Shown here: positions 3-51,459 of the stretch, one piece after another
Layout: every line of letters starts with the position of its first letter
Position numbering within the stretch: the stretch's first letter is position 1
Origin: a virus
Lineage: Duplodnaviria > Caudoviricetes
DNA length: 51,459 nucleotides
Virus record (IMG/VR): IMGVR_UViG_3300025585_000057
Coordinates: 1-51,459 of that record
Reading direction: 5' to 3' (one strand)
The notes under the pieces: generated by a model
What the model was told of the DNA's origin: nothing
Database searches by the model: none
What the model saw: only the letters and a program-made list of their open reading frames with translations
Position numbers and translations under genes: made by a program

Positions 3-3000
3 ATGACCCTCGAACAGAAGCGACCTTTTCATGAACAATGGGCGCAGTCGTTTGAGCGCTACATCTTGGAAGGCAAAGCACCGACGGTCGAGATGCAGCC
101 GGTGTTCGCTCGATTCCGTGCGTGGATGATCAGCGTATACAAATCGATCAAAGAATTCCTTAAACAGAATCCGCTTGCCGGCAAGTTGAACGACGACGTT
201 CGCGCCATATTCGATCGATTGCTCGCAACCGAAGAGAAGATCACGGAAATGGAGCGTGCTCGCAGCATGATGCCGTTGTTTGCATCGGCTGATCAAGCGG
301 GAGTTACACAAGCGAAATTCGAAGCGTATCTCGCCGAAGGGCAAGCGGCTACCGACGAAGCTGTTTCACAACTCGCGGCTCGCAGTTTGCGCGATATGAA
401 ATGGGCCTCCGGTGCTCGTGACAAGGCGTTGCGCCAATTACAACGCGAAGCTAAAGCAAAGCGCAAAGCGTTGACCGAAGAGGTTGCCGCTGAGGTGGCG
501 CAGGAGCCGATCACACAGGCACGGAACTTCCTGCTGCGCGGAATTATCACCGGTGATGACGGAGTTAAGACGAAAGCCTCTACGACCTTCAAATTGGATC
601 GTGGCGCGATTAATGAACTTTACCCAGGCATAGACCTCACCCGGATCGAGAAAATGGTTTCTGACGCGGGTATGACGCCCGATGCTGCCGCCCAGATGTT
701 CGGCTTCAGCAGCGGACAGGAACTGATCGATGCGCTGCTCAATGAAGAGTCTACAACAGATAAAATTCAAGGGTTGGTCGATCAGCGGATGCTCGAACGC
801 TACGGCGATCTGGTTGACGACAGAGCGATCGAGGCAGCAGCGGACAAGGCGATACACAACCGGGTACGGGCGAAGTTCTTGGCTACCGGTCTGGCTATCC
901 TGAAGAAGCAACCCGGCGGTGCGGCAGCGCTCAATAAAGCTGCGAAGCTTGCAGCGGAAGGGGCTCTGTCGCGTAAGAAGCTCCGTGATATTACTCCAGG
1001 ACAATATGCCGCAGCAGAACGTCGGGCAAATGCTGAGGCGCTCAAACGGGTATCGGGTGACGAGAAAGCAGCTATAGAAGCCCAACGGGCGGCCTTGCTC
1101 AACAACCACCTAGCACGGCTATCCCGTGATATCCGCGAGGAAGTTGACGCGGCTCTGAAGTACCTCAAGAAGTTCGATAAGGTAGAACTGCGCAAGAAGC
1201 TGGGCCCAGACTACATGGAACAGATCGATGACCTGTTGCAGAACTTCGACTTCCGTAAGGGCACTCCGTTGTCTAAGATCGACAAGCAGCAAGCGTTGCG
1301 CGACTGGATCGAGGATCAACAGGCAGAAGGTTTCGAGCCAGCCATAGACGATTCCTTGTTAGATTCTCTGAAACTCAAGAGCTACAAGGAAATGACTCTC
1401 GACGAGTTTCGCGGCATCGTTGACGCCGTGAAGCAGATCGAGCACCTGGGGCGTTTAAAGGACAGGCTGCTCACGGCCAAAGAGGCCAAAGAGTTCAACG
1501 CCTCAGTTGAGAAGGCGACAGAATCCATCAAGGCGAACGCTAACAGAGTGGTGACGGAACACGAGACCCCGACTGACCTCTACGGTAAAACGAAGAAGTG
1601 GTTCCGTCAGATGTTCGCCGCGCACCGCAAATTCAACTCCGTTATCCGTGAGATGGACGGGTTCAAGAATGCCGGTGTTATGTGGGAGATGCTGGCTCGC
1701 CCGATGAATGAAGCCGGGGATGCCGAAGTTGAGATGCGCCAGAAGGCAGCCGAGGAACTCGGTCGGCTGTTCGGTATGCTAGAGAATACGGACACGGTTC
1801 CGGGCAACTTGTACTCTAAGAAACGCCTAGTGCCGGGGACAGATATCTCAATGACTCAGGAACAGCGGATCATGTTCGGCATGAACTGGGGCAACGAAGG
1901 AAACCGGCAACGGTTGATGGACGGCGGGCTGGCGGGGCGTAAGGCGCTCTCTATGCAGGAGGCCCAAGCTATTCTCGATACGCTCACCAAGCCCGAATGG
2001 GATTTCATACAATCCGTGTTGGATTTCGTGGGTTCCTATAAAGAGCAGATCGCAGCACTCGAGAGACAGGTAACAGGCATCGAACCGAAGTGGATCGACG
2101 CCATGCCGATAGAGACGAAGTTCGGAACCTACCGTGGAGGGTACTTCCCAGCAAAGTACGACGCGGACCTGTCTACCAGATCCGAGGTATTGGAAGCGGT
2201 CAACGACATGCGCATGGGCATGAAGGGGGCGTTTCAGTCTGCGGCTACAAAGAACGGATATACGAAAGAACGTTCTAAACAGGTTATAGGTCGCCCGATT
2301 CTCCTGAGCTTCAACACGATAGCTCAGCATGTGAGCGAGGTGACCCACCGCCTAGCGTGGCAGCCGTGGTTGATAGACGCGAATCGTCTATTACGTGCGC
2401 TGGATGAACCAATCCGAGAGCACTACGGAACTGAACTCCTGCGAGAACTACGCAATACTGTTTTAGATATCGCCACGGGTGACGTGGGCGCTAAGAACGC
2501 TATGGAAGCCGGTATCAATCACCTACGGACGGGATCGACTATCGTTGGCATGGGCTGGAGGGTGACTACCGCGTTATTGCAACCGAGTGGTCTGGCTCAA
2601 AGCTGGTCGCGTATCGGTAGCAGATCGATAGCTGCAGGGCTGGCCCAGTATCTTAAAAACCCGATAGTAGCCGGTAAGTTCGTAGACGAGAAATCGAGCC
2701 TGATGCGTAACCGCGGAATCACGATGCAGCGTGAGGTGAATGAGGTGTTGAATACTCTGAGATCCGGCAGTAAGGTGTCCGCCGTTACGGGGTCGTACTT
2801 CACCCTGATCGGCAAGATGCAACGCACCGTGGACATCCCAACATGGATCGGGGCTTACGAAAAGGATCTCGCGGAGCAGGGTTACGAGGCTGCAGAGAAC
2901 GAGGAAGAACGTGCTAAGATGGAAGCACGAGCCGTAGCAGTAGCCGATCAAACGGTAATCGATACGCAATCCGGGGGGCAGATAAAAGACCTTGCGAGCA

Positions 3001-3584
3001 TCCAGCGGGGGTCGCCTGTACAGAAATTGTTTACTAACTTCTACTCGTACTTCAGCGCCACATATAACTTGAATGTCGAAACGGTACGCAAAACAAACTT
3101 CCGTGATCCTGCCAGTGTTGGCCTGATGGCGGTAGACCTGTTGCTATTGAATACGGTTCCGGTGCTATTCGCCCTGGCTCTCAAACAAATGACGAAAGGT
3201 GAATGTGAATGGGATGATACGGAATGCCTATTAGAGAAAGCGGGGCAGGAGCAGATAAACTTCCTCATGGGGCAGATGATTATACTGAGAGAGGTCGCCG
3301 TGGCGGGACAGGCGTTGATAGGCGCGGATACCTACGGGTATCAAGGCCCGGCGGGGTTGAGGTTCTTCAGCGATCTGTATAAGTTAGGTACACAGGTAGA
3401 ACAAGGCGACGCGGATCTTGCGGCTTTCAAAGCTGCGAACTCGGTAGCGGGGGCGCTCTTTCATTACCCAGCCGGGCAGATTAATTCAACGCTCGATGGT
3501 ATACTCGCCATCGAAGACGGTAGAGTGGAAGGGGTAAGCATATTGCCAGCACTAATCGCGGGAGCACCGAAAGATGCTAGATAA
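3..3584 (+). CDS. C-terminal part of giant internal virion (ejection) / large polyvalent protein; 5' truncated, continues from 44180..51459
   Basis: Frame is open from the window edge. It begins with HEQWAQSFERYILEGKAP...VFARFRAWMISVY, the second half of a zincin-like domain whose HExxH half (IHEGGHFYLE) is at the other window end. The rest is long and helical with hydrophobic C-terminal helices, as in podovirus ejection proteins. Confidence 0.8.
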   Translation: MTLEQKRPFHEQWAQSFERYILEGKAPTVEMQPVFARFRAWMISVYKSIKEFLKQNPLAGKLNDDVRAIFDRLLATEEKITEMERARSMMPLFASADQAGVTQAKFEAYLAEGQAATDEAVSQLAARSLRDMKWASGARDKALRQLQREAKAKRKALTEEVAAEVAQEPITQARNFLLRGIITGDDGVKTKASTTFKLDRGAINELYPGIDLTRIEKMVSDAGMTPDAAAQMFGFSSGQELIDALLNEESTTDKIQGLVDQRMLERYGDLVDDRAIEAAADKAIHNRVRAKFLATGLAILKKQPGGAAALNKAAKLAAEGALSRKKLRDITPGQYAAAERRANAEALKRVSGDEKAAIEAQRAALLNNHLARLSRDIREEVDAALKYLKKFDKVELRKKLGPDYMEQIDDLLQNFDFRKGTPLSKIDKQQALRDWIEDQQAEGFEPAIDDSLLDSLKLKSYKEMTLDEFRGIVDAVKQIEHLGRLKDRLLTAKEAKEFNASVEKATESIKANANRVVTEHETPTDLYGKTKKWFRQMFAAHRKFNSVIREMDGFKNAGVMWEMLARPMNEAGDAEVEMRQKAAEELGRLFGMLENTDTVPGNLYSKKRLVPGTDISMTQEQRIMFGMNWGNEGNRQRLMDGGLAGRKALSMQEAQAILDTLTKPEWDFIQSVLDFVGSYKEQIAALERQVTGIEPKWIDAMPIETKFGTYRGGYFPAKYDADLSTRSEVLEAVNDMRMGMKGAFQSAATKNGYTKERSKQVIGRPILLSFNTIAQHVSEVTHRLAWQPWLIDANRLLRALDEPIREHYGTELLRELRNTVLDIATGDVGAKNAMEAGINHLRTGSTIVGMGWRVTTALLQPSGLAQSWSRIGSRSIAAGLAQYLKNPIVAGKFVDEKSSLMRNRGITMQREVNEVLNTLRSGSKVSAVTGSYFTLIGKMQRTVDIPTWIGAYEKDLAEQGYEAAENEEERAKMEARAVAVADQTVIDTQSGGQIKDLASIQRGSPVQKLFTNFYSYFSATYNLNVETVRKTNFRDPASVGLMAVDLLLLNTVPVLFALALKQMTKGECEWDDTECLLEKAGQEQINFLMGQMIILREVAVAGQALIGADTYGYQGPAGLRFFSDLYKLGTQVEQGDADLAAFKAANSVAGALFHYPAGQINSTLDGILAIEDGRVEGVSILPALIAGAPKDAR

Positions 3585-29248: not shown

Positions 29249-30037
29249 ATGGCTATCGTAAAAGGGCTTTGGGACAAGACAGCGGTAAATAAGGGGTGGT
29301 TCGATCCACAACTTATAACCGTTGGTTGGTTTGATAAGCGCCTCATCGATGACCTGAATCCGCCAGTAGTCAAGGATCTGACAGCGGCCACGTTCACCTT
29401 TACTTCTGCCACACTGCAGAACCGATTGACTCTGAACCCGACAACAGGCGCGCTTACTTTTAGCCCTAAAACGACGCAGAATACCCAGACAAATAGGCCG
29501 ACAGCGGCTACATTCAACTTCAGCGGGCAGGCGTATAACAGCTTCCTTGCGATGTCTACCACAGCAGCGGTATTCAGCTTTACCAGCAATGCTATAGCGA
29601 GTGCCAACTCACACGGGCTATCTACGCCATCCTTTGGGTTCGATGGCACAGACGTTAGCCTCGCGATGAACAACACGCCAACCGCAGCGACATTCAACTT
29701 TACTGCAGGTGCTTTAACACAAACCCTCGATGCTACGCTTACGACACCGACAGCGACCTTCACAGCGAATACGATACAGAATCGGAATACCGTCACACCT
29801 ACCCCTCCAGAGTTTTTATTTGTGCCGCAGGATGTCACCTATGTCGCGAATGTTGTTTTAGAACTAACCGTGGCCACGCTTGCACTAACACCGGCAACTA
29901 CCCAGAATACGAATACGATAGAACTATCAGCAGCAACATTCCTGATTCAATCAGCGGGAGACCTGGAGCTGGTTATAGGCGGGGGCGTTCTGCCAGATCC
30001 GTTGAAAATACGACCACTAATTGGAGTTGGTTTATAG
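29249..30037 (+). CDS. Thr-rich protein with ten ~20-aa repeats (fibre shaft-like)
   Basis: LTAATFTFT / PTTGALTFS / PTAATFNFS / TTAAVFSFT / PTAATFNFT etc. at 20-aa period. Confidence 0.65.
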   Translation: MAIVKGLWDKTAVNKGWFDPQLITVGWFDKRLIDDLNPPVVKDLTAATFTFTSATLQNRLTLNPTTGALTFSPKTTQNTQTNRPTAATFNFSGQAYNSFLAMSTTAAVFSFTSNAIASANSHGLSTPSFGFDGTDVSLAMNNTPTAATFNFTAGALTQTLDATLTTPTATFTANTIQNRNTVTPTPPEFLFVPQDVTYVANVVLELTVATLALTPATTQNTNTIELSAATFLIQSAGDLELVIGGGVLPDPLKIRPLIGVGL

Positions 30038-30038
30038 A

Positions 30039-33000: not shown

Positions 33001-33164
33001 AGGACGTGAGGGACAAACTCGGGAGATCCCCGGACGAGGGCGACGCGGTAGTGATGGCATGGTATGATGGATTCAGACTGGCTAACGTCCAAGGCGGCTG
33101 GGAGGATAACGTTTACAATAAAACGCGAACGATATCTGTGAATCGTGGAAGGCGGTATAACTGA
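30039..33164 (+). CDS. terL: Terminase large subunit containing two inteins (about 523 aa after splicing)
   Basis: PNPGPQ, YGGAAGGGK|T Walker A, DLY|CFDE Walker B, GAGNPP, IGCDVA and RSPDEGDA nuclease motifs. Confidence 0.93.
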   Translation: MFRADDLLQILNELSPSDRKEAIALASAVTEHLPWVPNPGPQTEAFFSQADEVFYGGAAGGGKLQSIQSLTLTPTGWRKIGDLKVGDKLCATDGTVQEVIGVFPQGTVSIYRVTMRDGGATEAGLDHNWLAWRTHANTKKGNRVTCGAESARKWTTRQMIAEMEKGTRDDGRRRGFAIPVTEPVNFTVAGQLKGRGVFVGREIDPYILGLLLGDGHITEKGIGLTSMDAEIASAFMAWAGEDCRVKVEQNKRSDTYALRGPMLKKLKDQLSDLDLLGCKSHDKFIPRQYLFAPIEERWALLQGLMDTDGWVEPRRACYYTTVSEVLASDVEHLARSLGAVTTRTEKNPNYTYKGEKLTGQKAYCIRIKLPNPECAFRLPRKIAVAASIEHQSEGRVIESITYVREDEAVCIAVSNANSLYITDDFIVTHNTDLLLGLALTGHTKSLVLRRTNREVNGLVERMTEILGAREGYNSQSGIWRYSDKLIELGGCQLEEDKQKYKGNAKDLYCVGPDTEVLMADGCYRRMVEIVPGDLVATLEGPKRVNRVYTIPNKDTVELSVQHPDGRNIRQLQSSAHYLFTGSGWEVPTNTTERLALLSAGTRTGTEYPHPYTGGLRKVQTGLIYTTAPTVTPIGVRTLYDMEVEEVNHFITKGGIVNKNCFDELSDFTESQYVFITGWNRSTKPGQRCRIIGAGNPPTRPEGQWVVRRWAAWLDPRHPRPAKPGELRWYTTNNKGEEEEVDGPGPHYLDGDRPLYARSRTFIPAALADNPDLVGTGYQASLDSLPAELRAAYRDGNFHTGIQDDPYQLIPSAWVIAAQERWRPNPPVGIPMCAIGCDVAVAKDKFVIAQRHDSWFAPLIVIPGKEVADPKQAAGRVLALRRDNAKVIVDVGGGWGADCYGQLTSNQIDALAYMGVKASKRKTLDGKFGFSNVRTEALWKLREALDPSQPGGSTMQLPQSVTLRADLCAPYYAVKKQGDTIMLVAESKEDVRDKLGRSPDEGDAVVMAWYDGFRLANVQGGWEDNVYNKTRTISVNRGRRYN
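30228..31328 (+). mobile_element. Class 3-type intein with LAGLIDADG homing endonuclease (367 aa) in TerL Walker A
   Basis: Starts LQSIQSLTLTPTGW and ends FIVTHN/T; DHNW (block B Trp), AVCIAV (block F Cys), Thr in block G; LGLLLGDG and LQGLMDTDG motifs. Confidence 0.88.
31563..32015 (+). mobile_element. Mini-intein (151 aa) in TerL Walker B
   Basis: Starts CVGPDTEVLMADG, block B SSAH, block F LYDMEVEEVNHFI, ends IVNKN/C; no endonuclease. Confidence 0.88.
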
Positions 33165-41968: not shown

Positions 41969-42445
41969 ATGGCGCAGATAATGATGCCTATGTTGGCCAT
42001 TGGCGGCGCGGGGATCTCGGCGCTTAGTAGTATCCAGGCAGGGCGGCAACAGAAAGCTGCGGCCAAATATGAAGCGAGGGTGCTGGATTTTAACGCCAAG
42101 CAGCAAGAAGCCGCCGGGCAGCAGGAGGCTATCAAGGCGCATCGTGAAGCGGACCTCATGGCTTCGAGGGCCTTGGCTATAGCAGGGGCTTCGGGTGCGG
42201 GAACTGTCGACCCGAATGTGCTCAATATCGTAAGCGGCATCCAACGTGAGGGCGAATACAACGCCCAACAAGCACGATACAACTACGGCTCTCAAGCCGC
42301 GAGCATGAGAGCTCAAGCGGGGGCCAGACGCCTGGAGGGTAAGAACGCAGCCAAAGCTGGGTGGATCAACGCCGGGGCCACCGTATTGAGTGGGGCAGCA
42401 ACCGCCGGGGATATGTTCTACGGCATGACTAGACCGAATGCTTGA
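41969..42445 (+). CDS. Internal virion (ejection) protein, gp14-like
   Basis: Ala/Gly-rich hydrophobic N-terminus, A.AGASG, Gln/Ala coiled coil. Confidence 0.75.
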   Translation: MAQIMMPMLAIGGAGISALSSIQAGRQQKAAAKYEARVLDFNAKQQEAAGQQEAIKAHREADLMASRALAIAGASGAGTVDPNVLNIVSGIQREGEYNAQQARYNYGSQAASMRAQAGARRLEGKNAAKAGWINAGATVLSGAATAGDMFYGMTRPNA

Positions 42446-42458
42446 GAGGAATTCAATA

Positions 42459-44180
42459 ATGCCTGTATTACCCACAGCAGCGGATATCACGAGAGCACCA
42501 GCGAGACCGTCTTCAGCGGTTGCGCAGTATAACCCAGGTGCAGTCGAAGAAGCGACAGCCAACTTAGGGCGCACGATAACCCGCACGGCAGATGCTGTTG
42601 TCGACATACAACACCGGCTGGCGCGATTGCATGCGCAGGATGCGCTGCTCGATCTCAAGAGGGCGCATAACGAACTTACCTACGGAGAGAACGGTTACGC
42701 CCGCTTGCAGAACGGAGCGGCTGCGGCTCCTGGGGTCTATAAGAAGTATGAGGATCTACACCGAGCAACGGCTGCAAAGTTCGCAGAGAAACTGAACCCG
42801 CTGGCTCGACAATATTTCGAAGTCGAGGCAAAAGACCTCGGCGATAATTTTCAGGCAGGATTTCTCCGACACGCGATGTCAGAAGAGCTTAAGCATCGCG
42901 GTGCGGTGTTTAAATCTTCCATCGACGTGTCAGCACAGACGGCAGCGTTGAACTACAACAACCCTGAGGTGCTGGCGCGAGAGAAGACATCCCGCGACAA
43001 ACTGCTGGCGGATTACTTTGCGGAGAACATTCCAGGCAACGACGAAGGGGATCAGAAACTACGGCTCTCTATAATGCACTCTGTACACGGCGAGGCGCAC
43101 GAAGCTGTCGTTAGAGCGATGTTGTTAAACGATAGGGTGCAAGACGCCAAGGAGTACCTGACCGCGAACAAGGATGAAATGTCCGGCAATCGGTTCCAGG
43201 CATTGCAGGACACGATGAAGAGCGAGGTCGCCGCAGATGAGGCGAGGGATATCGCCACCGAAATGTATAACATGCGTATCAAAGGCGCGTCGGAAATACA
43301 GATACAACAGCGGAAATTGGAACTCACGAAAGGGAAAAGCTCAACGACATCGAACTTCGTTGATAACGTTTACGGCGATCTGGTACGTGCACGCGAAACG
43401 GACGAACGCCGAGCTGTGGGCTCGCTGTTAATGGAAGCCGCGAACGGCGGCCTCAGCCCGAAAGATCCGAGGCTATTGGATCTCAAGATAAACAACCCGG
43501 CTTTGGCGCTGCAGGTACAGAAAGCCATGCAGAGACAGGCGGGGGGCGGCGGGGGCAAGGGCAGTAAGATGACGGATATGGCTTTGTACGCCGACATCGC
43601 AGACAAAATACGTACAGGCAAAGCTGTAGACGCGAACGATATCTACGGCTACGCGGGGGGCGGGTTGAGTGATGCTGACGCGAAGAAGCTCGTCGGTATG
43701 TTGGAGAAACGCGACACCGCAGCCGGCAAGTTCAAGATAAGTTCCGTACTGATCAAGGCCAACAAGCCGAAAAGCGCCAGCGGGAATAAGGAGCGCGATG
43801 CGGCTTACGCAGGATTCGTCGAATCCCAATTGGCGGAATGGAAAGAACAGAACCCAGGGAAGATCCCTACGCGGCAGGAGCAGATGGAAATCGTACAGTC
43901 GGCCAGCGAAGAGTATGTCGGGGTAGACCATGGAATGCTCTGGAGGGACATCACTGAGGAGTCTTACCGAATGGAGAATTTTAGCAATATCTACCCGAAA
44001 CGTTACGACAAAATAGAGGGGTTAAAAGGCCTCGGCCCTAATCAGAAGGTATACATCTACGAAGCCTGGAAGAAAGAAAAAGCACTCCCGGCAAAAGAAC
44101 GCAAGTATAATAGCGAAGCGGAATTTATAGTAGAAGGAGTCCCTTCGATACTCGAAGCGTTTAATAAGGCGAAAAAATAA
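42459..44180 (+). CDS. Internal virion (ejection) protein, gp15-like
   Basis: MPVLPT start after GAGAGGA RBS; helical; positioned before the giant gene. Confidence 0.7.
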   Translation: MPVLPTAADITRAPARPSSAVAQYNPGAVEEATANLGRTITRTADAVVDIQHRLARLHAQDALLDLKRAHNELTYGENGYARLQNGAAAAPGVYKKYEDLHRATAAKFAEKLNPLARQYFEVEAKDLGDNFQAGFLRHAMSEELKHRGAVFKSSIDVSAQTAALNYNNPEVLAREKTSRDKLLADYFAENIPGNDEGDQKLRLSIMHSVHGEAHEAVVRAMLLNDRVQDAKEYLTANKDEMSGNRFQALQDTMKSEVAADEARDIATEMYNMRIKGASEIQIQQRKLELTKGKSSTTSNFVDNVYGDLVRARETDERRAVGSLLMEAANGGLSPKDPRLLDLKINNPALALQVQKAMQRQAGGGGGKGSKMTDMALYADIADKIRTGKAVDANDIYGYAGGGLSDADAKKLVGMLEKRDTAAGKFKISSVLIKANKPKSASGNKERDAAYAGFVESQLAEWKEQNPGKIPTRQEQMEIVQSASEEYVGVDHGMLWRDITEESYRMENFSNIYPKRYDKIEGLKGLGPNQKVYIYEAWKKEKALPAKERKYNSEAEFIVEGVPSILEAFNKAKK

Positions 44181-47100
44181 TGGCGGACATACTGGAACAA
44201 CCCGAAGACAACAACGATATCCCACCAGTACCTAGGATTAAACCTCTAAGTGCCAAAGCGCTGCAAGCCGACCGAGTGTCGGTTGCGATTAATCGGGGGC
44301 TTATGGGCAACCCGGCGGACGCCGCGAAGCGCAAAGAGTACTCGAAGGAACTCGGGGTAGAGCCACACGAGATCAGGGACTTGAACGAAGCGAAAGCGGA
44401 GGTGATCAAGAAACGGTCGCAGATGGACCAACTCATTGAGACGAATCCGGGGTTAGCCCGGTATTTGTTAAACAATCCGATTACTCCCGAATTGGCTTCT
44501 GAAGATCTGCCGGCGTTACATAAGATCGCCCGCATGTGGCGGCGTACTGCTCTCGATCCTATCGTGCAAGTTTTTGGCAAGGGCAGTTCGATGTTGGCGC
44601 AGGGCGCTGTTGGTGCCGCTGATATAGCGACCAGATTTGTTCCAGGTAAAACACAGGATCTGGGTAAGACGCTCGAAGACGCCGGGTTCAAGTTTAAAGA
44701 ACTCGATCAGATTCTCGAGGGGATGCTCTCGCCCGAACAACAGCTCGCGAACATGAAACGCGCAGAGCAAAAAACATTCACCGGTGCTTTGGAAGCGATG
44801 GTGGAAAGCCCGAGCGCGGCATCCGACATGGTGTTGAGTAGTCTGGCTGCGATGTACGGCGGCGGGGCACTTGGCGCTGTGCTGAAGAAGGTCGCGCCAG
44901 CAGCCAGCGCGGCTGTAGCGGCGGCACTTGGGGAGAGCGTGGTGATAACCGGCGGGTTGCAAGAGAAGATCCGCCAGGAATCTAAGACGGGCACCACAAC
45001 CGAGGCACAAAAATCAATAGCAACCTTGGCGGGCACGGCAGCCGGTGGGGTAAGCGCGATATCGAACGTCATAGCACGCAAACTGGGGCTACCGGATATC
45101 GATGCGTACATAGCCTCTGGCGGTCTTAAAAACGCCCTGAGTACCTCCGGCGTTCCTCCTTCTTTGGCCAAAGTGATCTTATCAGGCACCGTTGTGGAAG
45201 GGGCCGAGGAGATGTCACAATCGGCCTTGGAGAGTGTGGCCGAAAACGTAGCACTAGGCAAACAATGGGACGACGGTCTCGGTGCAGCCGCAGCTCAGGG
45301 CTTGGTAGCGGGGTCGCTGACTCAGCTCGGTTTCTCGCCGATGATGATTCGTGATGCACAGAATACGATCGAGGATAACATCTCGAGGGAGCGCCACAAG
45401 GCGGCTTCGGATGCGCTTCAGAATACTTTCAAAGCGATGCGTGCCGAGGGCACCCGCGACATGCTGGCGAAAGTCGGAGAGGCGGTATCGGAATCTAATC
45501 TGAGAAACTTATCCACAGATGCGTTCGCCGAATTCGTCGATCACATGACAGAGGATTCTGACGTGGATGCGGTCTACGTTCCGGTCGAGAAACTCGACGA
45601 AGTGCTGTTGCAGAGCGGCATGTCTGAGTCAGAACTTACTGACAAGATGCCAGAAGTTGCTGACAACATCCGTATCGCTCGTGCGACGAAAGGCGACGTT
45701 CGGATACCGGTCAAGGATTACCTGGTGAACTTCGCCGGAACACCAACAGAGAAATCCCTGCTCGATCACCTGAAGATCGATCCGGAAGGCATGACCTTCG
45801 CCGAATCCCAGGAGTTCATGCAATCGCAGAAAACCGAATTTGAAGCGCAGGCACAGCAAATCATAGCTGCCGATCAACCGGTATTGAGCGCGGAAGAGTA
45901 TGCGAAACAACCGGTGGAAGGTAAGACTTATAAACAATACCTGCAGGAACACCCCGATCAGAACGCCGTAATCGAGGCAGATTCAAAAAATGTTGAGCGG
46001 GTAATAGTAGGGGAACTAAATAAAGCCGGACGCTTTAATAGAGAGGCTAACGCGGTTTACGCGGTACCGTTCCGTGAGTTCTTCAGAACTGCGGCTATTC
46101 GAGAAACCCGGAGCACGGGTAAATTGGTAACGCCGACTGAAATATATGAACGCTATCCGCTCAAGTACCAAATGCGGGGCGAGACCCCAACGGCAACACC
46201 GGATACGCTGACGCAGCCGGTTACCGCTGCTACGCCCGAGGATTTCAAGACCGAGAACATTCAGGACATTCTGGAGAACGGCAACTGGATGATCGTCGCG
46301 GCGACCAATCCGAACGCCAGCACTTTGACTGACGAAGAGAATGAGAAGTTGCACGCGAAATTGTTGGCAGATCTTGATGCTCGCGGGTTGAAGTATGAAG
46401 TCGTGTACGGCAGATATCCCGGAGACGCGACAGAAATGCCCTCCGTGTTGGTATACGACGTTGACAACGCAACCGCTCGGGATTTCGCGAACAGATATGA
46501 TCAGGACTCAGTCCTGGTTCGTGATGGCTTTATCTACCGTGACGGGCAGGTTAAACCCCATCTAGGCAATGTGACGACGTATAGCGACACCGCGTCTGCG
46601 TTTTCCGCCGGCGGGTACACGAGAGTACCATCAACCGGTGCGATTTTCTCTGTTGATTTCGATTGGGATGCTAACGACAGGTATACACCCGGAGCTGATT
46701 TTTACACGCAACCTACGATACAGAAACCCGGATCGATGACCTTGGTCGGCGTGCACTACTCGCATGAGAAGAGAACTGTTCTCGACGGCATGAAGTACGG
46801 AACAGGGCTGACGGGCAAAGAAAGGGATCGGGTGTTGTACGGTGCTAATACCGATGACAATATCAAAACCAGAGTAGATTTCTACACCGACACCGGTAAC
46901 GGTGTTACTCCGGAGAGTGGCTTAGGTGGGGTTAAGCATGAAGTGCTGTTGACCGACATCTATGACGCATCGGTAAACCCGCTGAATCTCAGCTATCCGC
47001 CGACGTGGGACGGGGGCAATACCTTCGAGCAACAGGTACTCGCGAACGGGTTCAAAGGATACTTCGTAAATCAAGGCAAACAAGGTCGAGTGGTACTGCT

Positions 47101-50100
47101 GGGCGAAGCCGCTCGCGCCGTGCCGGTGCCAACACCGGAACAACTGGAGGAACAGAAATATGAACAACGCAGAAGAAGTGGGTTTCCATCGGCAGAGACA
47201 AGGGCGTATCAGGGCACTCGTGAAGCAGATGGAAGTCTCAAAGGGCTCCCCCGACAAGTCGGGGGATTCAACGCCGCGCACTACCGCAAAGCGGAAGAAG
47301 TAACCCGTAAATATATGGCCGATGCGGGGTTACCTTATAACCCGCCTAGTCAGTATGTCACCGTCGATCCGGAACGCGCAAAACGCATAGCGTCTGCATT
47401 CGACGCGATGAAGCACGATCCGCAAGATCCGCTGGTTAAGGAAGCCTATGCGGCGCTCGCAGCAGAAACTATAGCACAGTACAAAGCGGTGTTGGATTCA
47501 GGGCTCGTCATTGAGTTCATCGATTTCAGTAAAACGGGCGACCCGTATGAGGGCAACCCGCGCAAAATGACTGAGGATGTTATCAACAACAACCATATGT
47601 GGGTCTTCAGTACTCGCGAGGGTTTCGGATCTGATGCCGCCTTTGACCCTACAGATAACCCGCTGTTGGCAGAAACTGAATTTGAGATAAGCGGGCAGAA
47701 GGCTTTAGTTAACGATCTTTTCCGTGTTGTGCATGATTATTTCGGCCATGTAAAAGAGGGCGTTGGCTTCCGGGCCTCGGGCGAGGAGAACGCTTGGCGG
47801 GCGCACATGAGCATGTTCAGCCCACTTGCGGGCAGAGCTTTGACCACCGAGACTAGAGGGCAAAATTCTTGGGTGAATTTCGGACCTTACGCGGAGCACA
47901 ACAAAACGGCCAGCGGAGCTGACACGCATTACGCGGATCAGAAGATCGGGCTGTTACCCGAATGGGTCTCGGCTGATGGAGTCAACGATTCTGTAGGAGC
48001 GGAGGGGTACCAGCAATCGGCTCGTCGTTTGATGCTGAAGACGGAGAACCTCAAAAAGTATGGTTTGAAACCCGGCGGTAAATACACCACACGGGAAGTC
48101 GTCGCGGCTCTCGAGGCGCGTCAACGCGATAAATACGGGATCATCGAAAAGGGCGATTATTCTGAAGAAGCTATAAATAAAATCTCTAGTTGGATAGCGG
48201 AAGAGGTTCGCTTTGAAATGTCGGACCCCGACAACTCCGGTCTCGGGTGGTATTCGTGGAAATACCAGAGGGCGCTCGATATCATGGGGGAAAAATACCC
48301 CGAATTGCTAACAGATAAAAACGCTCGCAGCACATTTACCGCGTTGTTAGCGATAACGTCTGACGGTAACCGTCCGAGTATCAACACGATATTGGCGGAC
48401 GTCGCTTACGCGGAGTACCGCAAGACGGGACGTTTTGGGTCTCTGGAGGGCAAAACTGCACGCACAAATATACCTGTCGTAATCTCCCGCCTACAGTCCT
48501 TATACGACGAGTTCGGCGGAGATGTAGAAAAGGTGCACCAATACCTGATGTCTGAAAAGACCTTAGGGGAGCTGAAGCGCGAAGCGGAAGCAGCGGGTAA
48601 AACACTGTCCTCGCCGTATGAAGTATCTACTATGCTGCCTATGGCGGCGCTGGAATTCGGGCCGAAACTTGGCGCTTTCTACGCGAATCTCATGGGCTCA
48701 CATGGGTACCTCACGATGGATCGGTGGTGGTCTAGGACTTTTAATCGGTATCGTGGGTTGTTACTGACGGCACCTACCAAGGAAGGGCTCAACACGTTCA
48801 GGAACCTGATAGGCCAACCGGAGTTAAGCGACGACGAGGTTGTGTCGGCGGTAGTACCGTTCGCGGAAAGACTAGGGGCACGTAAGTTCAAAACCCGCTT
48901 GGCGCAATTGGTTGGCAAGTCCGAGCCTTCGAAAAAGGCGGATGCTGAAAAGTGGATGAAGATTGCGAGAGAGAAAGCGGGTGACGCTTTCGAAGAGTTG
49001 CTCGCGGAGCACAACATAGAGAGGGCTGCTAACACTATATATAAAGCAGCTTTTATCAGCATAGAGGATTCACCTTTCGGCGCAAAGGATCGTACCTTCA
49101 TGATCAATGCGACAAAGAAAGCACGGCGTAAATTGAAGGCGACCGGGTTGGACATAAGCATATCCGACATCCAGGCGGTTTTATGGTTCTTCGAGAAAAA
49201 ACTATACGGAGAACTTGGTACTAAATTTTCAGGAACGGTATCCTATGAAGACACAGCAAGAAAAATTATCAGTGGACAACTCACTGCCTCCGATCTCGGA
49301 TCCGAAGACGATGGAGCTATTGACGGGGTTGATGAGGAAGAAGTTTCTGTCGGGGACGAAGACTATGCCGATGAAGGGGGCTACCAACAGTCCTCCTTCT
49401 ACTCAGCCCTAGAACGCGAAATCGGCGGACTCAATAAGATCGCGAATAAGGAAGGCTCGGTAAAACCCGACCAAGCGATCAAGTGGATCGAGGCGCGACA
49501 GAAAGAGGGCAAGTTTAAGAAAGAGGAAGTCGAGGCTGTCGGCGTCCTCGATTGGTTACAGACGAGAACGGGCGACGTGAAGGTCGCCGCTGTCGAGGAT
49601 TTCGTTCGCCAGAACGGTGTGCAGTTAGAAGTAATGGTGTTAGGTGATAATCCCATAGACGAGGATCGTGTTTACGAGGTCGCTAGAGAGAGCTTCTTTA
49701 ACAACTTCGATGTGTACCAACACCCCTACTATGAAAGTTTGATCGAAAATGCGGTTCGCGACACTGCGCGGGAGATGCTGGACGACCCTGAGCATCTGGT
49801 TTGGGAACTCTACGGGGAGAATTGGCACGACACTGAGGACCTCGAAAGTTACTCCCGAGACGATGTATCCGAGTTAGCGCGTCGTCTGCAGGAGTCTCTG
49901 TCTGTTTACGAGATAATAGGAGAGGACGTCGAGGATGATATCAGGGATGAAGTGTACACCCTCGTTTGGGACGAGGAGTCAGATTATTATCTGGATGACG
50001 CCCGAACGTTCCTTCAGGAACAAGAAGGGAGCTACCCGGCAGAATTCGAGGACTACCAACTAGACGGCGGGGAGAATTACCGAGAGATCCTCTTCCGGTT

Positions 50101-51459
50101 GCCTTATCTCGACCTCCGAAGCAGTTTCGACGCCCCCCATTTCAGGGAAGAATTATCGGAAAACCTTATAGCACACACACGGGTCAATGAGCGCTTCGCT
50201 AAGAACTACACGCCTGAGGAACAGGCACAACTAGATGAATTTAAAAAACAGCACGCGGAGTGGGTTGCGGGTAATAGAACCCAGGAGATACAAGACCTAT
50301 TCGCCGCGTTGAATAAGGCCTACGAGGATCTTCGCAACGCGGCTAACGGGCGCATCATTACGCCTGAATTAGAGGCTGAAGATCCCGTACTTGCAGAAGC
50401 TGCGGATCGCGATCGTAGGCTGTCCGCAGAAATCAAAGCACTACAAGAAACCCGCCGAGCGGCAGAACCCAAGCGCCCCGATATAAAACCCAAAACGGAG
50501 AAGGTGCTCTTTGTCGAGGAAGTGCAATCAGATTGGGCGCAGCAAGGACGGGACTTCGGGTTCATCTTGAAAAACCCACCTAAACTCACAGCGGACGAAC
50601 TTGAGTACGAAGCGATAATCGCCCGTATATCTAGTCCCGAAAATTCTGAATTGAATAAAATAGCAGGGCTCCCTCCAACGAGAGAGGAACAGGAGCGACT
50701 GGAAGAACTCCGCGCACATAATGTCGACAAGTCATATAAGAAGAAGATTAAACCGGATATTAAAGCTGCACCCTTTGTTACCGACACCCAGGCATGGGTG
50801 ACGCTAGTAACTAAGCGCCTCTTACGTTATGCAGCCGAAAACGGATTCACCAGGATTAGTTGGACTACAGGAGCCCAGCAGGCGGAGCGGTACCGTGCCG
50901 CTCTGTTAGCTCAAGTTGATGAGATACTCTACTCTAAGAATAAATACGGTACCTATAGCTTCGAACTGTACAAGAACGGCAATCCGTCGAACCAAAGGAT
51001 ATGGGAGGAAAACGTTTCCGCAGACCGTATCATGGCGGTGTTCGGAAAGGATATCGGCGAGAAGATAGTAAACGGCCCTGTTACTGAGGGCGACAATAAG
51101 AATGTTATATCTGCCGACGGCTTAACCGTCGGGGGTCAGGGCATGAAGGACTTCTACGACAAACTGCTGCCTTCAGTGGTATCTAAAGTAACGAAGTCCC
51201 TCGGGGGATCCGGTAAGATTGAAATTATCGATTTCACCGGTAAGGGCAAAGTCTACGATGACGAAATCGGTGTGCAGCAGTCGATAGCCATTACCCCTGC
51301 TATGGTTGAGAAGATCATGTCGGGGCTGCCGCTGTTCAAGGGCGAGAGGGGTAGTTTTAACCCGAACACCTTCATTACCACGTTGACCGATGGCAGCGAC
51401 AAATCAACGGTAATCCACGAAGGCGGGCACTTCTACCTGGAAGCTCTTGCGGATATGGC
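44180..51459 (+). CDS. Giant internal virion / large polyvalent protein, N-terminal 2426 aa (3' truncated; absent from ORF track)
   Basis: ATG overlaps the previous stop (TAATG). Manual translation stays open to the window end (...DKSTVIHEGGHFYLEALADMA). Ala/Gly hydrophobic helices near the N-terminus, then several enzyme-like domains. Confidence 0.9.
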   Translation, partial: MADILEQPEDNNDIPPVPRIKPLSAKALQADRVSVAINRGLMGNPADAAKRKEYSKELGVEPHEIRDLNEAKAEVIKKRSQMDQLIETNPGLARYLLNNPITPELASEDLPALHKIARMWRRTALDPIVQVFGKGSSMLAQGAVGAADIATRFVPGKTQDLGKTLEDAGFKFKELDQILEGMLSPEQQLANMKRAEQKTFTGALEAMVESPSAASDMVLSSLAAMYGGGALGAVLKKVAPAASAAVAAALGESVVITGGLQEKIRQESKTGTTTEAQKSIATLAGTAAGGVSAISNVIARKLGLPDIDAYIASGGLKNALSTSGVPPSLAKVILSGTVVEGAEEMSQSALESVAENVALGKQWDDGLGAAAAQGLVAGSLTQLGFSPMMIRDAQNTIEDNISRERHKAASDALQNTFKAMRAEGTRDMLAKVGEAVSESNLRNLSTDAFAEFVDHMTEDSDVDAVYVPVEKLDEVLLQSGMSESELTDKMPEVADNIRIARATKGDVRIPVKDYLVNFAGTPTEKSLLDHLKIDPEGMTFAESQEFMQSQKTEFEAQAQQIIAADQPVLSAEEYAKQPVEGKTYKQYLQEHPDQNAVIEADSKNVERVIVGELNKAGRFNREANAVYAVPFREFFRTAAIRETRSTGKLVTPTEIYERYPLKYQMRGETPTATPDTLTQPVTAATPEDFKTENIQDILENGNWMIVAATNPNASTLTDEENEKLHAKLLADLDARGLKYEVVYGRYPGDATEMPSVLVYDVDNATARDFANRYDQDSVLVRDGFIYRDGQVKPHLGNVTTYSDTASAFSAGGYTRVPSTGAIFSVDFDWDANDRYTPGADFYTQPTIQKPGSMTLVGVHYSHEKRTVLDGMKYGTGLTGKERDRVLYGANTDDNIKTRVDFYTDTGNGVTPESGLGGVKHEVLLTDIYDASVNPLNLSYPPTWDGGNTFEQQVLANGFKGYFVNQGKQGRVVLLGEAARAVPVPTPEQLEEQKYEQRRRSGFPSAETRAYQGTREADGSLKGLPRQVGGFNAAHYRKAEEVTRKYMADAGLPYNPPSQYVTVDPERAKRIASAFDAMKHDPQDPLVKEAYAALAAETIAQYKAVLDSGLVIEFIDFSKTGDPYEGNPRKMTEDVINNNHMWVFSTREGFGSDAAFDPTDNPLLAETEFEISGQKALVNDLFRVVHDYFGHVKEGVGFRASGEENAWRAHMSMFSPLAGRALTTETRGQNSWVNFGPYAEHNKTASGADTHYADQKIGLLPEWVSADGVNDSVGAEGYQQSARRLMLKTENLKKYGLKPGGKYTTREVVAALEARQRDKYGIIEKGDYSEEAINKISSWIAEEVRFEMSDPDNSGLGWYSWKYQRALDIMGEKYPELLTDKNARSTFTALLAITSDGNRPSINTILADVAYAEYRKTGRFGSLEGKTARTNIPVVISRLQSLYDEFGGDVEKVHQYLMSEKTLGELKREAEAAGKTLSSPYEVSTMLPMAALEFGPKLGAFYANLMGSHGYLTMDRWWSRTFNRYRGLLLTAPTKEGLNTFRNLIGQPELSDDEVVSAVVPFAERLGARKFKTRLAQLVGKSEPSKKADAEKWMKIAREKAGDAFEELLAEHNIERAANTIYKAAFISIEDSPFGAKDRTFMINATKKARRKLKATGLDISISDIQAVLWFFEKKLYGELGTKFSGTVSYEDTARKIISGQLTASDLGSEDDGAIDGVDEEEVSVGDEDYADEGGYQQSSFYSALEREIGGLNKIANKEGSVKPDQAIKWIEARQKEGKFKKEEVEAVGVLDWLQTRTGDVKVAAVEDFVRQNGVQLEVMVLGDNPIDEDRVYEVARESFFNNFDVYQHPYYESLIENAVRDTAREMLDDPEHLVWELYGENWHDTEDLESYSRDDVSELARRLQESLSVYEIIGEDVEDDIRDEVYTLVWDEESDYYLDDARTFLQEQEGSYPAEFEDYQLDGGENYREILFRLPYLDLRSSFDAPHFREELSENLIAHTRVNERFAKNYTPEEQAQLDEFKKQHAEWVAGNRTQEIQDLFAALNKAYEDLRNAANGRIITPELEAEDPVLAEAADRDRRLSAEIKALQETRRAAEPKRPDIKPKTEKVLFVEEVQSDWAQQGRDFGFILKNPPKLTADELEYEAIIARISSPENSELNKIAGLPPTREEQERLEELRAHNVDKSYKKKIKPDIKAAPFVTDTQAWVTLVTKRLLRYAAENGFTRISWTTGAQQAERYRAALLAQVDEILYSKNKYGTYSFELYKNGNPSNQRIWEENVSADRIMAVFGKDIGEKIVNGPVTEGDNKNVISADGLTVGGQGMKDFYDKLLPSVVSKVTKSLGGSGKIEIIDFTGKGKVYDDEIGVQQSIAITPAMVEKIMSGLPLFKGERGSFNPNTFITTLTDGSDKSTVIHEGGHFYLEALADM

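What the first reader, a model, noticed from the sequence alone, without database searches (positions are those of the whole stretch)
44180..51459. Unlisted giant ejection protein carrying five cargo domains separated by a repeated (Y/L)xQ linker
Seen: one frame is open from 44180 to the end. After the scaffold region (...TPTEIYERYPL) come five unrelated-looking blocks. Each is preceded by a similar short motif: LTQP (46208), FYTQP (46700), KYEQR (47156), EGYQQS (48002) and GGYQQS (49376). The array closes at LPLFKGERGSF (51326) just before an HExxH zincin. Established: podovirus internal virion proteins are ejected into the host, and large polyvalent proteins combine effector domains with metallopeptidases. 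Inference: this is a modular injected toolbox. The linker may be both a cassette exchange boundary and a cleavage site for the protein's own zincin, releasing anti-defence effectors at infection.
Basis: partly seen in the sequence, partly recalled or inferred. Interest (0 to 1): 0.85.

Follow-up and report, generated by a model that had tools for sequence, protein, structure and literature searches.

The report
Punctuated cargo array in ejection protein
A podovirus's giant injected virion protein carries five swappable enzyme modules, each ending in a short hydrophobic-x-glutamine mark that recurs at the same junctions in relatives and may be a cutting site, though cutting is untested.

Summary
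The frame 44180-51457 is open (2426 aa), and all six motifs and the HExxH sit at the stated coordinates. The gene does not end at the window's edge. It continues in ORF 3-3584 (1193 aa), because the record is broken inside the gene. It occupies the T7 gp16 / BPP-1 Bbp10 position. Its layout is N scaffold, five mutually unrelated modules, an HExxH module, then a helical C-terminal module. Among the 150 best of 9689 relatives the modules come, go and change order.

The loose (Y/L)xQ pattern is not enriched in this protein alone (15 seen, 11 expected). Across relatives, however, hydrophobic-x-Gln marks the junctions:
- after the scaffold: 80 of 87
- before HExxH: 133 of 141
- at well-supported indel ends: 67 and 69 of 82

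The last module ends PLF-Q in 30 of 33 fused copies but in 20 of 97 free-standing ones. Junction DNA is not conserved.

Cleavage is unproven. The HExxH module matches no peptidase family or solved fold, and N4's analogous protein is reported as packaged uncut. The carrier class is known, and this scan has met it before on other DNA. The junction mark appears undescribed. Only module 1 (SAM-lyase-like) suggests anti-defence.

The parts
44180..46216 (+). N-terminal scaffold (aa 1-661) plus an 18-aa linker that ends in junction mark J0, L-T-Q (aa 677-679, nt 46208-46216).
   Evidence: It matches phrog_9880 profile positions 56-658 of 2231. Of 150 relatives, 134 hit it. Anchored on the conserved YPL motif, 80 of 87 relatives have hydrophobic-x-Q here, 14-18 aa after the anchor in 67 of them. 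Shuffled windows give 39.7 +/- 4.4.
46217..46711 (+). Cargo module 1 (aa 680-844): DUF3293 / SAM-lyase-like. It ends in Y-T-Q (nt 46703-46711).
   Evidence: Pfam DUF3293 scores 45.1 bits against a cut-off of 25. S-AdoMet_lyase scores 31.5 bits against a cut-off of 28 when the segment is scanned alone, but 25.7 bits in the whole protein. The module is present in 27 of 150 relatives.
46712..47167 (+). Cargo module 2 (aa 845-996): the 'GVHYS' module of unknown function. It ends in Y-E-Q (nt 47159-47167).
   Evidence: No Pfam, NCBIfam or PHROG hit. It is present in 38 of 150 relatives, often fused directly behind module 1 or 3 without the mark.
47168..48016 (+). Cargo module 3 (aa 997-1279): a phage-specific domain of unknown function with invariant H-D-x3-H and E residues. 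It ends in Y-Q-Q (nt 48008-48016).
   Evidence: It has 942 relatives of 154-492 aa, none of the 120 listed carrying a family for it. The AF2 model has pLDDT 89.2, with both termini below 50. Foldseek found no PDB match at E <= 0.001 and 21 BFVD matches, all unnamed or polyvalent proteins. It matches phrog_3170.
48017..49390 (+). Cargo module 4 (aa 1280-1737): DUF7178-like. It has an acidic tail ending in Y-Q-Q (nt 49382-49390).
   Evidence: Pfam DUF7178 scores E 0.0034 and 17.7 bits, below the cut-off of 27. In the Atlas, 25 of 30 hits fall in DUF7178-bearing clusters with scores up to 0.94. It is present in 16 of 150 relatives.
49391..51340 (+). Cargo module 5 (aa 1738-2387): one large module (FYSALERE ... 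EEVQSDW ... ITPAM..GLPLF). It ends in L-F-K where relatives have L-F-Q (nt 51332-51340).
   Evidence: Free-standing proteins of 709-809 aa cover 100% of it at 25-27% identity, with no Pfam family. It holds a 100-aa insertion at aa 2007-2107 relative to 4 partners. It is present in 22 of 150 relatives at 50% coverage or more.
51341..51459 (+). First part of the HExxH module (GERGSFNPNTFITTL...HEGGHFYLEALADM; HExxH at nt 51416-51430), cut off by the end of the record.
   Evidence: HExxH lies upstream of the C-terminal module in 141 of 150 relatives. H, E and H are invariant in alignments of 61 and 38 sequences. In the AF2 model of relative P0275 the pattern is strand, strand, then the HExxH helix, at pLDDT 85-96.
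3..3584 (+). The rest of the same gene. It holds the second half of the HExxH module (MTLEQKRPFHEQWAQSFERY, carrying the invariant H-E...E) and the roughly 1150-aa helical C-terminal module.
   Evidence: It matches phrog_9880 profile positions 1019-2216 of 2231 at E 2.7e-302. It has 9689 relatives at E <= 0.001. It is 39.6% identical to BPP-1 bbp10 over 100% of its length. In relatives L003 and L004 the gene is continuous and lies between the same 580-aa and 406-aa genes.
42438..44180 (+). Upstream neighbour: a 580-aa protein with weak lysozyme-type PHROG matches. Its end overlaps the giant gene's start by one base.
   Evidence: It matches phrog_10475 at 4.7e-16. The same 580-aa gene precedes the giant gene in L003.
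41969..42445 (+). Small internal virion protein, at the T7 gp14-like position.
   Evidence: It matches phrog_418 'internal virion protein' at 1.4e-26.

Best explanation
This is the largest internal (ejected) virion protein of a BPP-1/epsilon15-type podovirus. It exceeds 3650 residues and is encoded across the two ends of the record.

Layout: an N-terminal scaffold and a helical C-terminal module of about 1190 aa are constant. Between them lie a cargo slot and a small HExxH module. Here the slot holds five unrelated modules: SAM-lyase-like, unknown, unknown metal-site domain, DUF7178-like, and a 650-aa unknown.

Each module carries a short hydrophobic-x-Gln mark in a flexible linker at its C-terminal end. 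Cargo-free relatives have one such mark, directly between the scaffold and the HExxH module. Cargo therefore looks to have been inserted at that mark, each cassette bringing its own copy.

Most likely reading (inferred, not shown): the mark is a processing site, and the polypeptide is cut there in the capsid or after ejection. That would separate scaffold, cargo enzymes and the C-terminal module. The embedded HExxH module is the first candidate protease.

Shown: the architecture, the modularity, and the position and context-dependence of the mark. Inferred: cleavage, the protease, the timing, and any anti-defence role beyond module 1.
For: Identity and position:
- Gene order is portal, major head protein, tail tube A and B, internal virion protein, a 580-aa protein, then the giant gene.
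- The C-terminal piece is 39.6% identical to BPP-1 bbp10 over its full length. Hardies 2016 lists Bbp10 as an IVP-D (T7 gp16) homologue (Table 2 passage).

Modularity:
- Among the 150 best of 9689 relatives, 124 have both anchors, with 73 to 1902 aa between them.
- Modules occur in other orders. In P0062 the order is 4, 3, 2.

The mark:
- An unbiased EM motif search on 121 post-scaffold windows returned [LFMY]-x-Q, with Q at 0.74.
- 80 of 87 anchored windows carry it, against 39.7 +/- 4.4 in shuffles.
- 133 of 141 relatives have it 17-48 aa before HExxH, whatever module precedes.
- BLAST alignments end exactly on Q at a rate of 0.045 per position, against about 0.012 nearby.
- In the cargo slot there are 416 insertions in 111 proteins. 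The mark lies within 12 aa of the left, right and both ends in 292, 291 and 208. Random placement in the same slot gives 185, 170 and 97 (sd 8, 7, 4). For the 82 insertions seen with 3 or more partners the counts are 67, 69 and 59.
- In two full genes from other genomes, read by eye, 6 of 7 junctions (P0303) and 6 of 6 (P0304) carry it.

The mark belongs to the junction, not to the fold:
- After the conserved 'ITPxM..G.PLF' end of module 5, the next residue is Q in 30 of 33 copies fused to HExxH. It is Q in 20 of 97 free-standing copies (Fisher P = 5e-13).
- Only 2 of 50 free-standing module-3 proteins that end within 25 aa of the domain have it.
- In AF2 models the mark lies in low-confidence linker. 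'GLPLFQGEEE' of P0275 is below pLDDT 50, between a helix and the first strand of the HExxH module. The last six residues of the module-3 model, which stop at the Tyr of Y-Q-Q, are below 50.

Protease candidate:
- H, E, H and a downstream H-E...E are invariant.
- HExxH is kept even in cargo-free relatives such as P0105, P0124 and P0148.
- No S78, S77 or ClpP prohead protease was found in the record.
- Iyer 2017 proposed autoproteolytic release for polyvalent proteins (passages).
Against: - No data on the protein itself exist, so cleavage is untested.
- Iyer 2017 reports that the N4 virion RNA polymerase is packaged unprocessed. The 2026 N4 paper describes its tail as an HExxH subdomain C1 followed by a helical C2 of about 110 kDa. 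I read that as the same layout as here.
- The HExxH module matches no peptidase family. Pfam found nothing on P0003, P0105 or P0007. MPTase-PolyVal, LPD1 and MuF_C were absent from three relatives' records at E <= 10. No PDB fold matched at E <= 0.001.
- The mark is not universal. Module 2 is often fused directly behind module 1 or 3. It follows the module core in only 16 of 27, 22 of 39, 15 of 21, 16 of 17 and 22 of 27 relatives for modules 1 to 5, in windows long enough that roughly half or more would be expected to hit by chance (my estimate).
- A scoring matrix trained on the post-scaffold site does not single out junctions. In this protein the five sites rank 1, 4, 5, 15 and 23, and hit density in cargo is not above that in the scaffold.
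- Q is followed by Pro at two of the five sites here, and in 10 of 80 post-scaffold sites. Many proteases do not accept this (recalled).
- The last site here reads K, not Q.
- Only the 150 closest of 9689 relatives were examined.
Confidence: 0.45

Rival explanations
1. The mark is a conserved but uncut joint. It is a short element at the end of each module that keeps neighbouring modules independent, for example for folding or for threading the chain through the tail channel. The whole protein is ejected and works as one polypeptide. The HExxH module acts on a host target or the cell wall.
For: - N4 vRNAP, which has a like layout, is reported as packaged unprocessed (Iyer 2017 passage; layout).
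- The mark is missing at a share of junctions.
- It reads K at the last site here.
- Pro follows Q at two sites.
- The phi24B authors propose a cell-wall role for the metallopeptidase domain of their giant ejection protein (passage).
Against: - It gives no reason why Gln in particular should be selected at the junction. Q follows PLF in 30 of 33 fused copies but 20 of 97 free-standing copies of the same module.
- It does not explain why the same three-residue pattern serves unrelated folds.
- The mark lies in predicted disordered linker, not in a structural cap.
Confidence: 0.3
2. The mark is a cleavage site, but the cutter is not the protein's own HExxH module. It could be a host protease, another phage protein, or a self-reaction of the Gln side chain of the kind seen with Asn/Gln at intein ends.
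For: - The pattern of a hydrophobic residue two before an acidic or amide residue resembles the L/I-x-E sites of T4-type head proteases (recalled, not tested).
- The HExxH module has no detectable kinship to known peptidases.
- Zincins usually select the residue after the cut, not before it (recalled).
Against: - No S78, S77 or ClpP-type protease was found in the record.
- The mark sits at a fixed short distance (mode 26 aa) before HExxH in 133 of 141 relatives, and the two are kept together even without cargo.
- No precedent was seen for such a self-reaction in phage proteins.
Confidence: 0.15
3. The mark has no function. It is carried along because cassettes are copied together with a piece of their old linker, or it is a by-product of a recombination signal in the DNA.
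For: - The motif is short and degenerate.
- It is not enriched in this protein alone.
- A matrix for it finds equal-scoring non-junction sites.
Against: - The six junctions share no DNA sequence: mean column identity 42%, 3 invariant columns.
- The mark is kept at about 40% protein identity across the family, at fixed positions.
- Q is context-dependent for the same module.
Confidence: 0.1

Closest known systems
Bordetella phage BPP-1 Bbp10 and its relatives (Caulobacter phages Jess A, SR18 and RapA; Xanthomonas phage CP2; Pseudomonas phage AF). GenBank annotates them 'crystallin beta/gamma motif-containing protein', 'lysis protein' or 'hypothetical'.
   Same: They share the C-terminal module: 39.6-40.0% identity over 100% of the 1193 aa for the BPP-1 and Caulobacter phages, and 43 of 49 phage records cover 80% or more. 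The gene position is the same. The N scaffold part is shared with the Caulobacter phages (aa 427-667). Hardies 2016 lists Bbp10 as a T7 IVP-D homologue.
   Different: The cargo differs. No phage record covers 80% or more of the 2426-aa part (0 of 227). The five-module array seen here occurs only in uncultured relatives (P0003, P0007, P0010).
Polyvalent proteins of phages and conjugative elements (Iyer, Burroughs, Anand, de Souza and Aravind 2017, PMC5512222).
   Same: Many unrelated effector-type domains sit in one virion-delivered polypeptide together with a metallopeptidase-like motif. Relatives carry LPD22 (12 of 14), LPD23, LPD37 and ART-PolyVal (3 of 14). That paper proposes autoproteolytic release.
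   Different: The window's own protein hits none of the LPD or MPTase-PolyVal Pfam families. The word 'linker' occurs 0 times in that paper's main text, and none of the passages I saw mentions a junction motif. Its supplementary alignments could not be seen.
Coliphage N4 gp50, the virion RNA polymerase (3500 aa; PDB 9pnr and 9pnt).
   Same: The order is the same: N-terminal part, cargo (the polymerase), an HExxH subdomain C1 (res. 2124-2375), then a helical C2 of about 110 kDa with no structural relatives (N4 paper passage). Locally, 'TIYLV...ETLIHELVH' resembles 'TFITTL...STVIHEGGH'.
   Different: There is no significant sequence similarity: best blastp E = 0.015, and that lies outside these parts. 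Foldseek gave only E = 0.31. N4 has one fixed cargo, not an array, and is reported as uncut. No hydrophobic-x-Q lies just before its HExxH.
Demarcation motifs of polymorphic toxins (VENN in CdiA, DPxGL in Rhs). Recalled, not tested here.
   Same: A short conserved motif marks the border between a constant carrier and exchangeable cargo.
   Different: Those motifs precede a single C-terminal toxin. Here the mark repeats after every module of a multi-module array inside a phage virion protein.

Membership tests
T7 gp16 / IVP-D type internal (ejection) virion proteins | The gene lies after the tail tube genes and the small internal virion protein, in the late structural block. | tested here: met
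   PHROG matches of the neighbours: phrog_394, phrog_376, phrog_418, then a 580-aa protein, then the giant gene. Gene order is the same in L003 and L004.
T7 gp16 / IVP-D type internal (ejection) virion proteins | Homology to an accepted member. | tested here: met
   39.6% identity over 100% of the 1193-aa piece to BPP-1 bbp10. Bbp10 is listed as an IVP-D homologue in Hardies 2016, Table 2 (passage). Homology to T7 gp16 itself was not tested.
T7 gp16 / IVP-D type internal (ejection) virion proteins | Present in the virion and ejected into the host. | not testable with these tools
   This needs proteomics of particles, and the phage is uncultured.
Polyvalent proteins (Iyer et al. 2017) | Several unrelated effector-type domains in one polypeptide of a phage or plasmid. 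| tested here: met
   Five segments show no mutual similarity and each has its own set of relatives.
Polyvalent proteins (Iyer et al. 2017) | Carries the Pfam families built from that work (LPD families, ART-PolyVal, MPTase-PolyVal). | tested here: not met
   The window's protein hits only DUF3293 and S-AdoMet_lyase. Relatives do carry LPD22 (12 of 14), LPD23 (3), LPD37 (2) and ART-PolyVal (3).
Zincin metallopeptidases | An HExxH motif on a helix. | tested here: met
   HEGGH lies at aa 2413. H, E and H are invariant in 61 and 38 aligned sequences. The motif is on helix 229-248 of the P0275 model.
Zincin metallopeptidases | A third metal ligand downstream and a zincin fold (mixed sheet plus active-site helix). 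| tested here: inconclusive
   Invariant H288, E289 and E296 lie on a later helix, and two strands precede the HExxH helix. No PDB fold match at E <= 0.001.
Zincin metallopeptidases | Match to a curated peptidase family (MPTase-PolyVal PF18818, MuF_C PF18819, or LPD1 PF18796 as an Atlas lead). | tested here: not met
   Pfam found no peptidase family on P0003, P0105 or P0007; the only hits were LPD22 in the N-terminal scaffold of P0105 and P0007. There were 0 of 3 records with a match at E <= 10 for each of the three families. Atlas scores were only 0.80-0.85.
SAM lyase family (Pfam PF23780) / DUF3293 (PF11697), for module 1 | Score above the curated cut-off. | tested here: inconclusive
   DUF3293 is met (45.1-45.6 bits against 25). 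S-AdoMet_lyase scores 31.5 bits against 28 for the segment alone but 25.7 for the whole protein. Catalytic residues were not checked.
DUF7178 (PF23802), for module 4 | Score above the curated cut-off. | tested here: not met
   17.7 bits against 27. The Atlas places it beside DUF7178 clusters: score 0.94, with 64% of that cluster's members carrying the family. It is a probable distant relative.
Head-protease processing of internal proteins (T4 gp21 type, L/I-x-E sites) | A prohead protease gene in the genome. | tested here: not met
   No match to Peptidase_S78, Peptidase_S77 or CLP_protease at E <= 1 in the record. The 329-aa gene between portal and head protein has no Pfam hit.

The most novel reading that the evidence does not exclude
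The giant ejection protein is a self-processing polyprotein of a tailed phage. Its small HExxH module, of no known peptidase family, cuts at every hydrophobic-x-Gln mark. One gene would thus deliver a scaffold piece, a channel-forming piece and up to five or more free enzymes into the host. New cargo would become releasable simply by landing at a mark with its own copy of it.
Probability: 0.3. Interest if true: 0.85.

Novelty: new variant of a known kind. Interest (0 to 1): 0.62.

Why it matters
Giant polyvalent virion proteins are common: the C-terminal module alone has 9689 representative clusters. Yet nobody has shown how a chain of several thousand residues carrying unrelated enzymes is put to use after injection. 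Autoproteolytic release was proposed in 2017 without a site.

A short mark that sits at module borders, and whose Gln depends on the fused context, gives that idea precise and cheap tests. These are neo-N-termini next to the marks, Q-to-A and HExxH mutants, and a three-part recombinant construct.

If the mark is a cut site, it would also give a rule for parsing such proteins into their working parts. It would further provide a way to load foreign cargo into phage particles for delivery in laboratory strains.

If the protein is not cut, the mark still defines module borders better than sequence searches do for these mostly unannotated domains.

Tried and rejected
- **Closing the record by a direct join of its ends.** The join is out of frame. 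Two metagenome contigs that hold the window's last 26 bases have 98 further bases (34 codons) there, but their C-terminal part is only 80% identical in DNA. A protein 100% identical to the window's 1193-aa piece has 64 different residues upstream that are not in the window. The size of the missing piece therefore stays open.
- **Scoring matrix trained on the post-scaffold site.** It was too weak to find junctions.
- **First count of the post-scaffold mark.** It used a misplaced window and is void. One search replaces it.
- **Counting the mark in long stretches after each module core.** The windows are long enough that chance alone gives roughly half or more (my estimate), so I did not use it as support.
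- **Sequence searches of solved structures.** Cargo, module-3 profile and C-terminal profile gave nothing relevant.
- **Foldseek against the PDB.** Neither model gave a match at E <= 0.001. The weak top hits for module 3 are aromatic amino-acid hydroxylases (E 0.2-1.8, TM below 0.2), which is a lead only.
- **Complex prediction of the HExxH module of P0003 with the 40-aa junction 3 stretch.** No verdict (score 0.07, mark 0.34).
- **The search for related loci with the scaffold alone.** It found only a 26-residue match at the end of a contig.
- **Literature.** I found no report of processing of Bbp10-type proteins and no description of the mark (searches; passages 20, 29, 35, 36, 43, 94, 96).
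- **N4 gp50.** There is no hydrophobic-x-Q just before its HExxH. Two such triplets (VNQ, IKQ) lie near residues 975-990, before the polymerase part. This was not followed up and may be chance.

Full report
**What is there**

The window is a whole IMG/VR virus record of 51459 bases, classed as linear. A frame opens at 44180 and runs to the last base (2426 aa).

The gene does not stop at the window's edge. ORF 3-3584 (1193 aa) and the 2426-aa piece match the two ends of one PHROG family, phrog_9880. The matches are to profile positions 56-658 and 1019-2216 of 2231, the second at E 2.7e-302. In two related genomes the gene is continuous, at 3238 and 2884 aa, and lies between the same 580-aa and 406-aa neighbours as here.

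The record is therefore a circularly permuted genome cut inside this gene. A direct join of the ends is out of frame. Two metagenome contigs that hold the window's last 26 bases have 98 more bases (34 codons) before 'MTLEQKRP', as does the protein P0003. However, their C-terminal part is only 80% identical in DNA to the window.

A protein whose last 1193 residues are identical to the window's (1193 of 1193) has 64 other residues upstream. These are not encoded anywhere in the window. The missing piece is thus either 98 bases or a further cargo module.

**What kind of gene it is**

The neighbours are, in order: terminase, portal-type adaptor, major head protein, two tail tube proteins, a small internal virion protein (phrog_418) and a 580-aa protein with lysozyme-type matches. 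The giant gene follows. This is the place of T7 gp16.

The 1193-aa piece is 39.6-40.0% identical over its full length to Bordetella phage BPP-1 bbp10 and to Caulobacter phage genes. Of 49 phage records, 43 cover at least 80% of it. Hardies and co-workers list Bbp10 as a homologue of T7 internal virion protein D. They state that such proteins host domains destined for the cytoplasm (abstract and Table 2 passages).

Iyer and co-workers described the wider class as polyvalent proteins (passages). This scan has already reported two such proteins in other genomes. The carrier is therefore of a known kind.

**The cargo**

After the scaffold (aa 1-661) come five segments with no similarity to each other.

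| Module | Residues | Assignment |
|---|---|---|
| 1 | aa 680-844 | DUF3293 (45 bits against 25); reaches the SAM-lyase family cut-off when scanned alone (31.5 against 28) but not in the whole protein (25.7) |
| 2 | aa 845-996 | No match in any library |
| 3 | aa 997-1279 | 942 relatives of 154-492 aa, none of the 120 listed carrying a family for it |
| 4 | aa 1280-1737 | Probable distant DUF7178 (17.7 bits against 27; Atlas 0.94) |
| 5 | aa 1738-2387 | One module, not one domain |

Further detail on module 3. An alignment of 53 of the 120 listed relatives gave a confident model (pLDDT 89.2). Foldseek found no solved relative at E <= 0.001. It did find 21 matches among predicted viral structures, all in unnamed, polyvalent or head-morphogenesis proteins. 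The invariant H-D-x3-H and Glu residues suggest a metal site.

Further detail on module 5. Free-standing proteins of 709-809 aa cover all of it at 25-27% identity, again with no family.

Only module 1 suggests counter-defence. That suggestion rests on what is known of phage SAM lyases (recalled), not on a test here.

**Is the cargo exchangeable?**

A HMMER search of 1.84 billion representatives with the 1193-aa piece gave 9689 hits at E <= 0.001. I worked with the best 150.
- In 124 of them both anchors could be placed. The stretch between the anchors is 73 to 1902 aa, median 769.
- The window's modules occur in 27, 38, 20, 16 and 22 of the 150.
- They occur in other orders and with other partners.
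- A Pfam census of 14 of the 150 found LPD22 (12), DUF3293 (8), LPD23, ART-PolyVal, LPD37, DUF7178 and ParB_N. It also found single cases of zeta toxin, SLT, GGDEF, nicotianamine synthase and methyltransferase domains.

Seven relatives carry a second cargo slot between the HExxH helix and the 'W..M.L..KRP.HE' helix. Many have a third variable stretch about 200 residues into the C-terminal module.

**The linker mark**

In this protein alone the loose pattern is not above chance (15 seen, 11 expected). In the family it is clearly present.

1. An EM motif search that was told nothing about the pattern returned [LFMY]-x-Q from 121 post-scaffold windows. Anchored on the conserved YPL motif, which was found in 87 of 124, 80 of 87 have it. 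It lies 14-18 residues after the anchor in 67. Shuffled windows give 39.7 +/- 4.4, with a maximum of 53 in 1000.
2. Of the 141 relatives with HExxH near the C-terminal module, 133 have the mark 17-48 residues before it (mode 26). This holds whatever module precedes.
3. Cargo-free relatives (P0105, P0124, P0148) have a single mark, directly between the scaffold and the HExxH module. The two conserved marks are therefore the same site split by insertions.
4. BLAST alignments between cargo regions end exactly on Q about four times more often than on nearby positions.
5. All-against-all comparison of 152 proteins gave 416 distinct insertions of 80 aa or more inside the cargo slot of 111 proteins. 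The mark lies within 12 residues of the left, right and both ends in 292, 291 and 208. Random placement in the same slot gives 185, 170 and 97. For the 82 insertions seen with three or more partners the counts are 67, 69 and 59.
6. The six junctions of the window share no DNA sequence.

Two results show that the mark belongs to the junction rather than to the modules.
- Module 5 ends in a conserved helix and 'G.PLF'. The next residue is Q in 30 of 33 copies fused to an HExxH module, but in 20 of 97 free-standing copies. There it is mostly A, T or S (P = 5e-13).
- Of 50 free-standing module-3 proteins that end within 25 residues of the domain, 2 have the mark.

In the models the mark lies in low-confidence linker.

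There are also limits.
- The mark is absent from many junctions, above all in front of module 2.
- A matrix for it cannot pick junctions out of sequence.
- Here the last site reads LFK.
- All counts come from the 150 closest relatives.

**The HExxH module**

H, E, H and a later H-E and E are invariant in alignments of 61 and of 38 sequences. The model of a relative shows two strands, the HExxH helix and three further helices at pLDDT 85-96.

It is not a member of any curated peptidase family that I could test. It also has no solved structural relative at E <= 0.001.

The nearest studied analogue is N4 gp50. The 2026 structural paper (three passages seen) describes its C-terminal domain as an HExxH subdomain followed by a large helical subdomain without relatives. 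I found no significant sequence similarity to it. Iyer 2017 reports that protein as packaged uncut.

**Reading**

The architecture and the junction mark are shown. That the mark is a cut site is the best available explanation for three facts: a Gln selected only in the fused context, its place in flexible linkers, and its fixed position next to a conserved metal-hydrolase-like module in a genome with no head protease.

It remains an inference, and I put it at about 0.45. I put cutting by the protein's own HExxH module at about 0.3. The main rival is an uncut joint. A cut by another agent and a functionless hitch-hiker are less likely.

**Novelty**

The carrier and the idea of autoproteolytic release are in print. 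I found no description of a repeated junction mark. 'Linker' occurs 0 times in the main text of Iyer 2017. 'Linker', 'junction', 'conserved motif' and 'cleav' each occur 0 times in Jamet 2017.

Noticed in passing
window 30021-33164 (+): The large terminase gene is 1047 aa and holds an intein-type insert. LAGLIDADG_3 matches at aa 304-356 (42 bits against a cut-off of 22.5), and there is a weak Hom_end-associated Hint match at aa 84-123. The terminase PHROG matches are split around it.
   Followed up: partly
window ends (51459 | 1): The record is broken inside the giant gene. Relatives link the two ends by 98 bases. However, a protein identical to the window's 1193-aa piece has 64 unrelated residues upstream ('...GELPKLSTPEEIWAA'), like relatives that carry a second cargo slot after HExxH. 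The break may reflect strain variants at this spot.
   Followed up: partly
window about 555-660 (aa 185-220 of the 1193-aa piece): Many relatives match the C-terminal module in two stretches with a break here. They hold insertions of 110-150 aa at this point that are not flanked by the mark. This is a third variable slot with other rules.
   Followed up: no
window 47168-48016 (+): Module 3 gives a confident model with no solved relative. Its invariant H-D-x3-H and Glu residues, and its weak top Foldseek hits to aromatic amino-acid hydroxylases (E 0.2-1.8), hint at a metal-dependent enzyme.
   Followed up: partly
window 50198-50500 (aa 2007-2107): Module 5 carries an acidic, helical insertion of 100 aa between 'LIAHTRVNER' and 'VLFVEEVQSDW' relative to four partners. 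It has no mark at its ends.
   Followed up: no
window 26522-27874 and 27878-29239 (+): These are two adjacent proteins of 450 and 453 aa. Both have weak Gly_rich_2 matches (E about 5e-4, below the cut-off), so they may be paralogous fibre-type proteins.
   Followed up: no
L006 (phage N4 gp50), residues about 975-990: Two hydrophobic-x-Q triplets (VNQ|S, IKQ|P) lie in a low-complexity stretch just before the polymerase part of N4 gp50. This may be chance.
   Followed up: no
window 44180: The 580-aa upstream gene ends at base 44180 and the giant gene starts at the same base, a one-base overlap. This suggests coupled translation.
   Followed up: no
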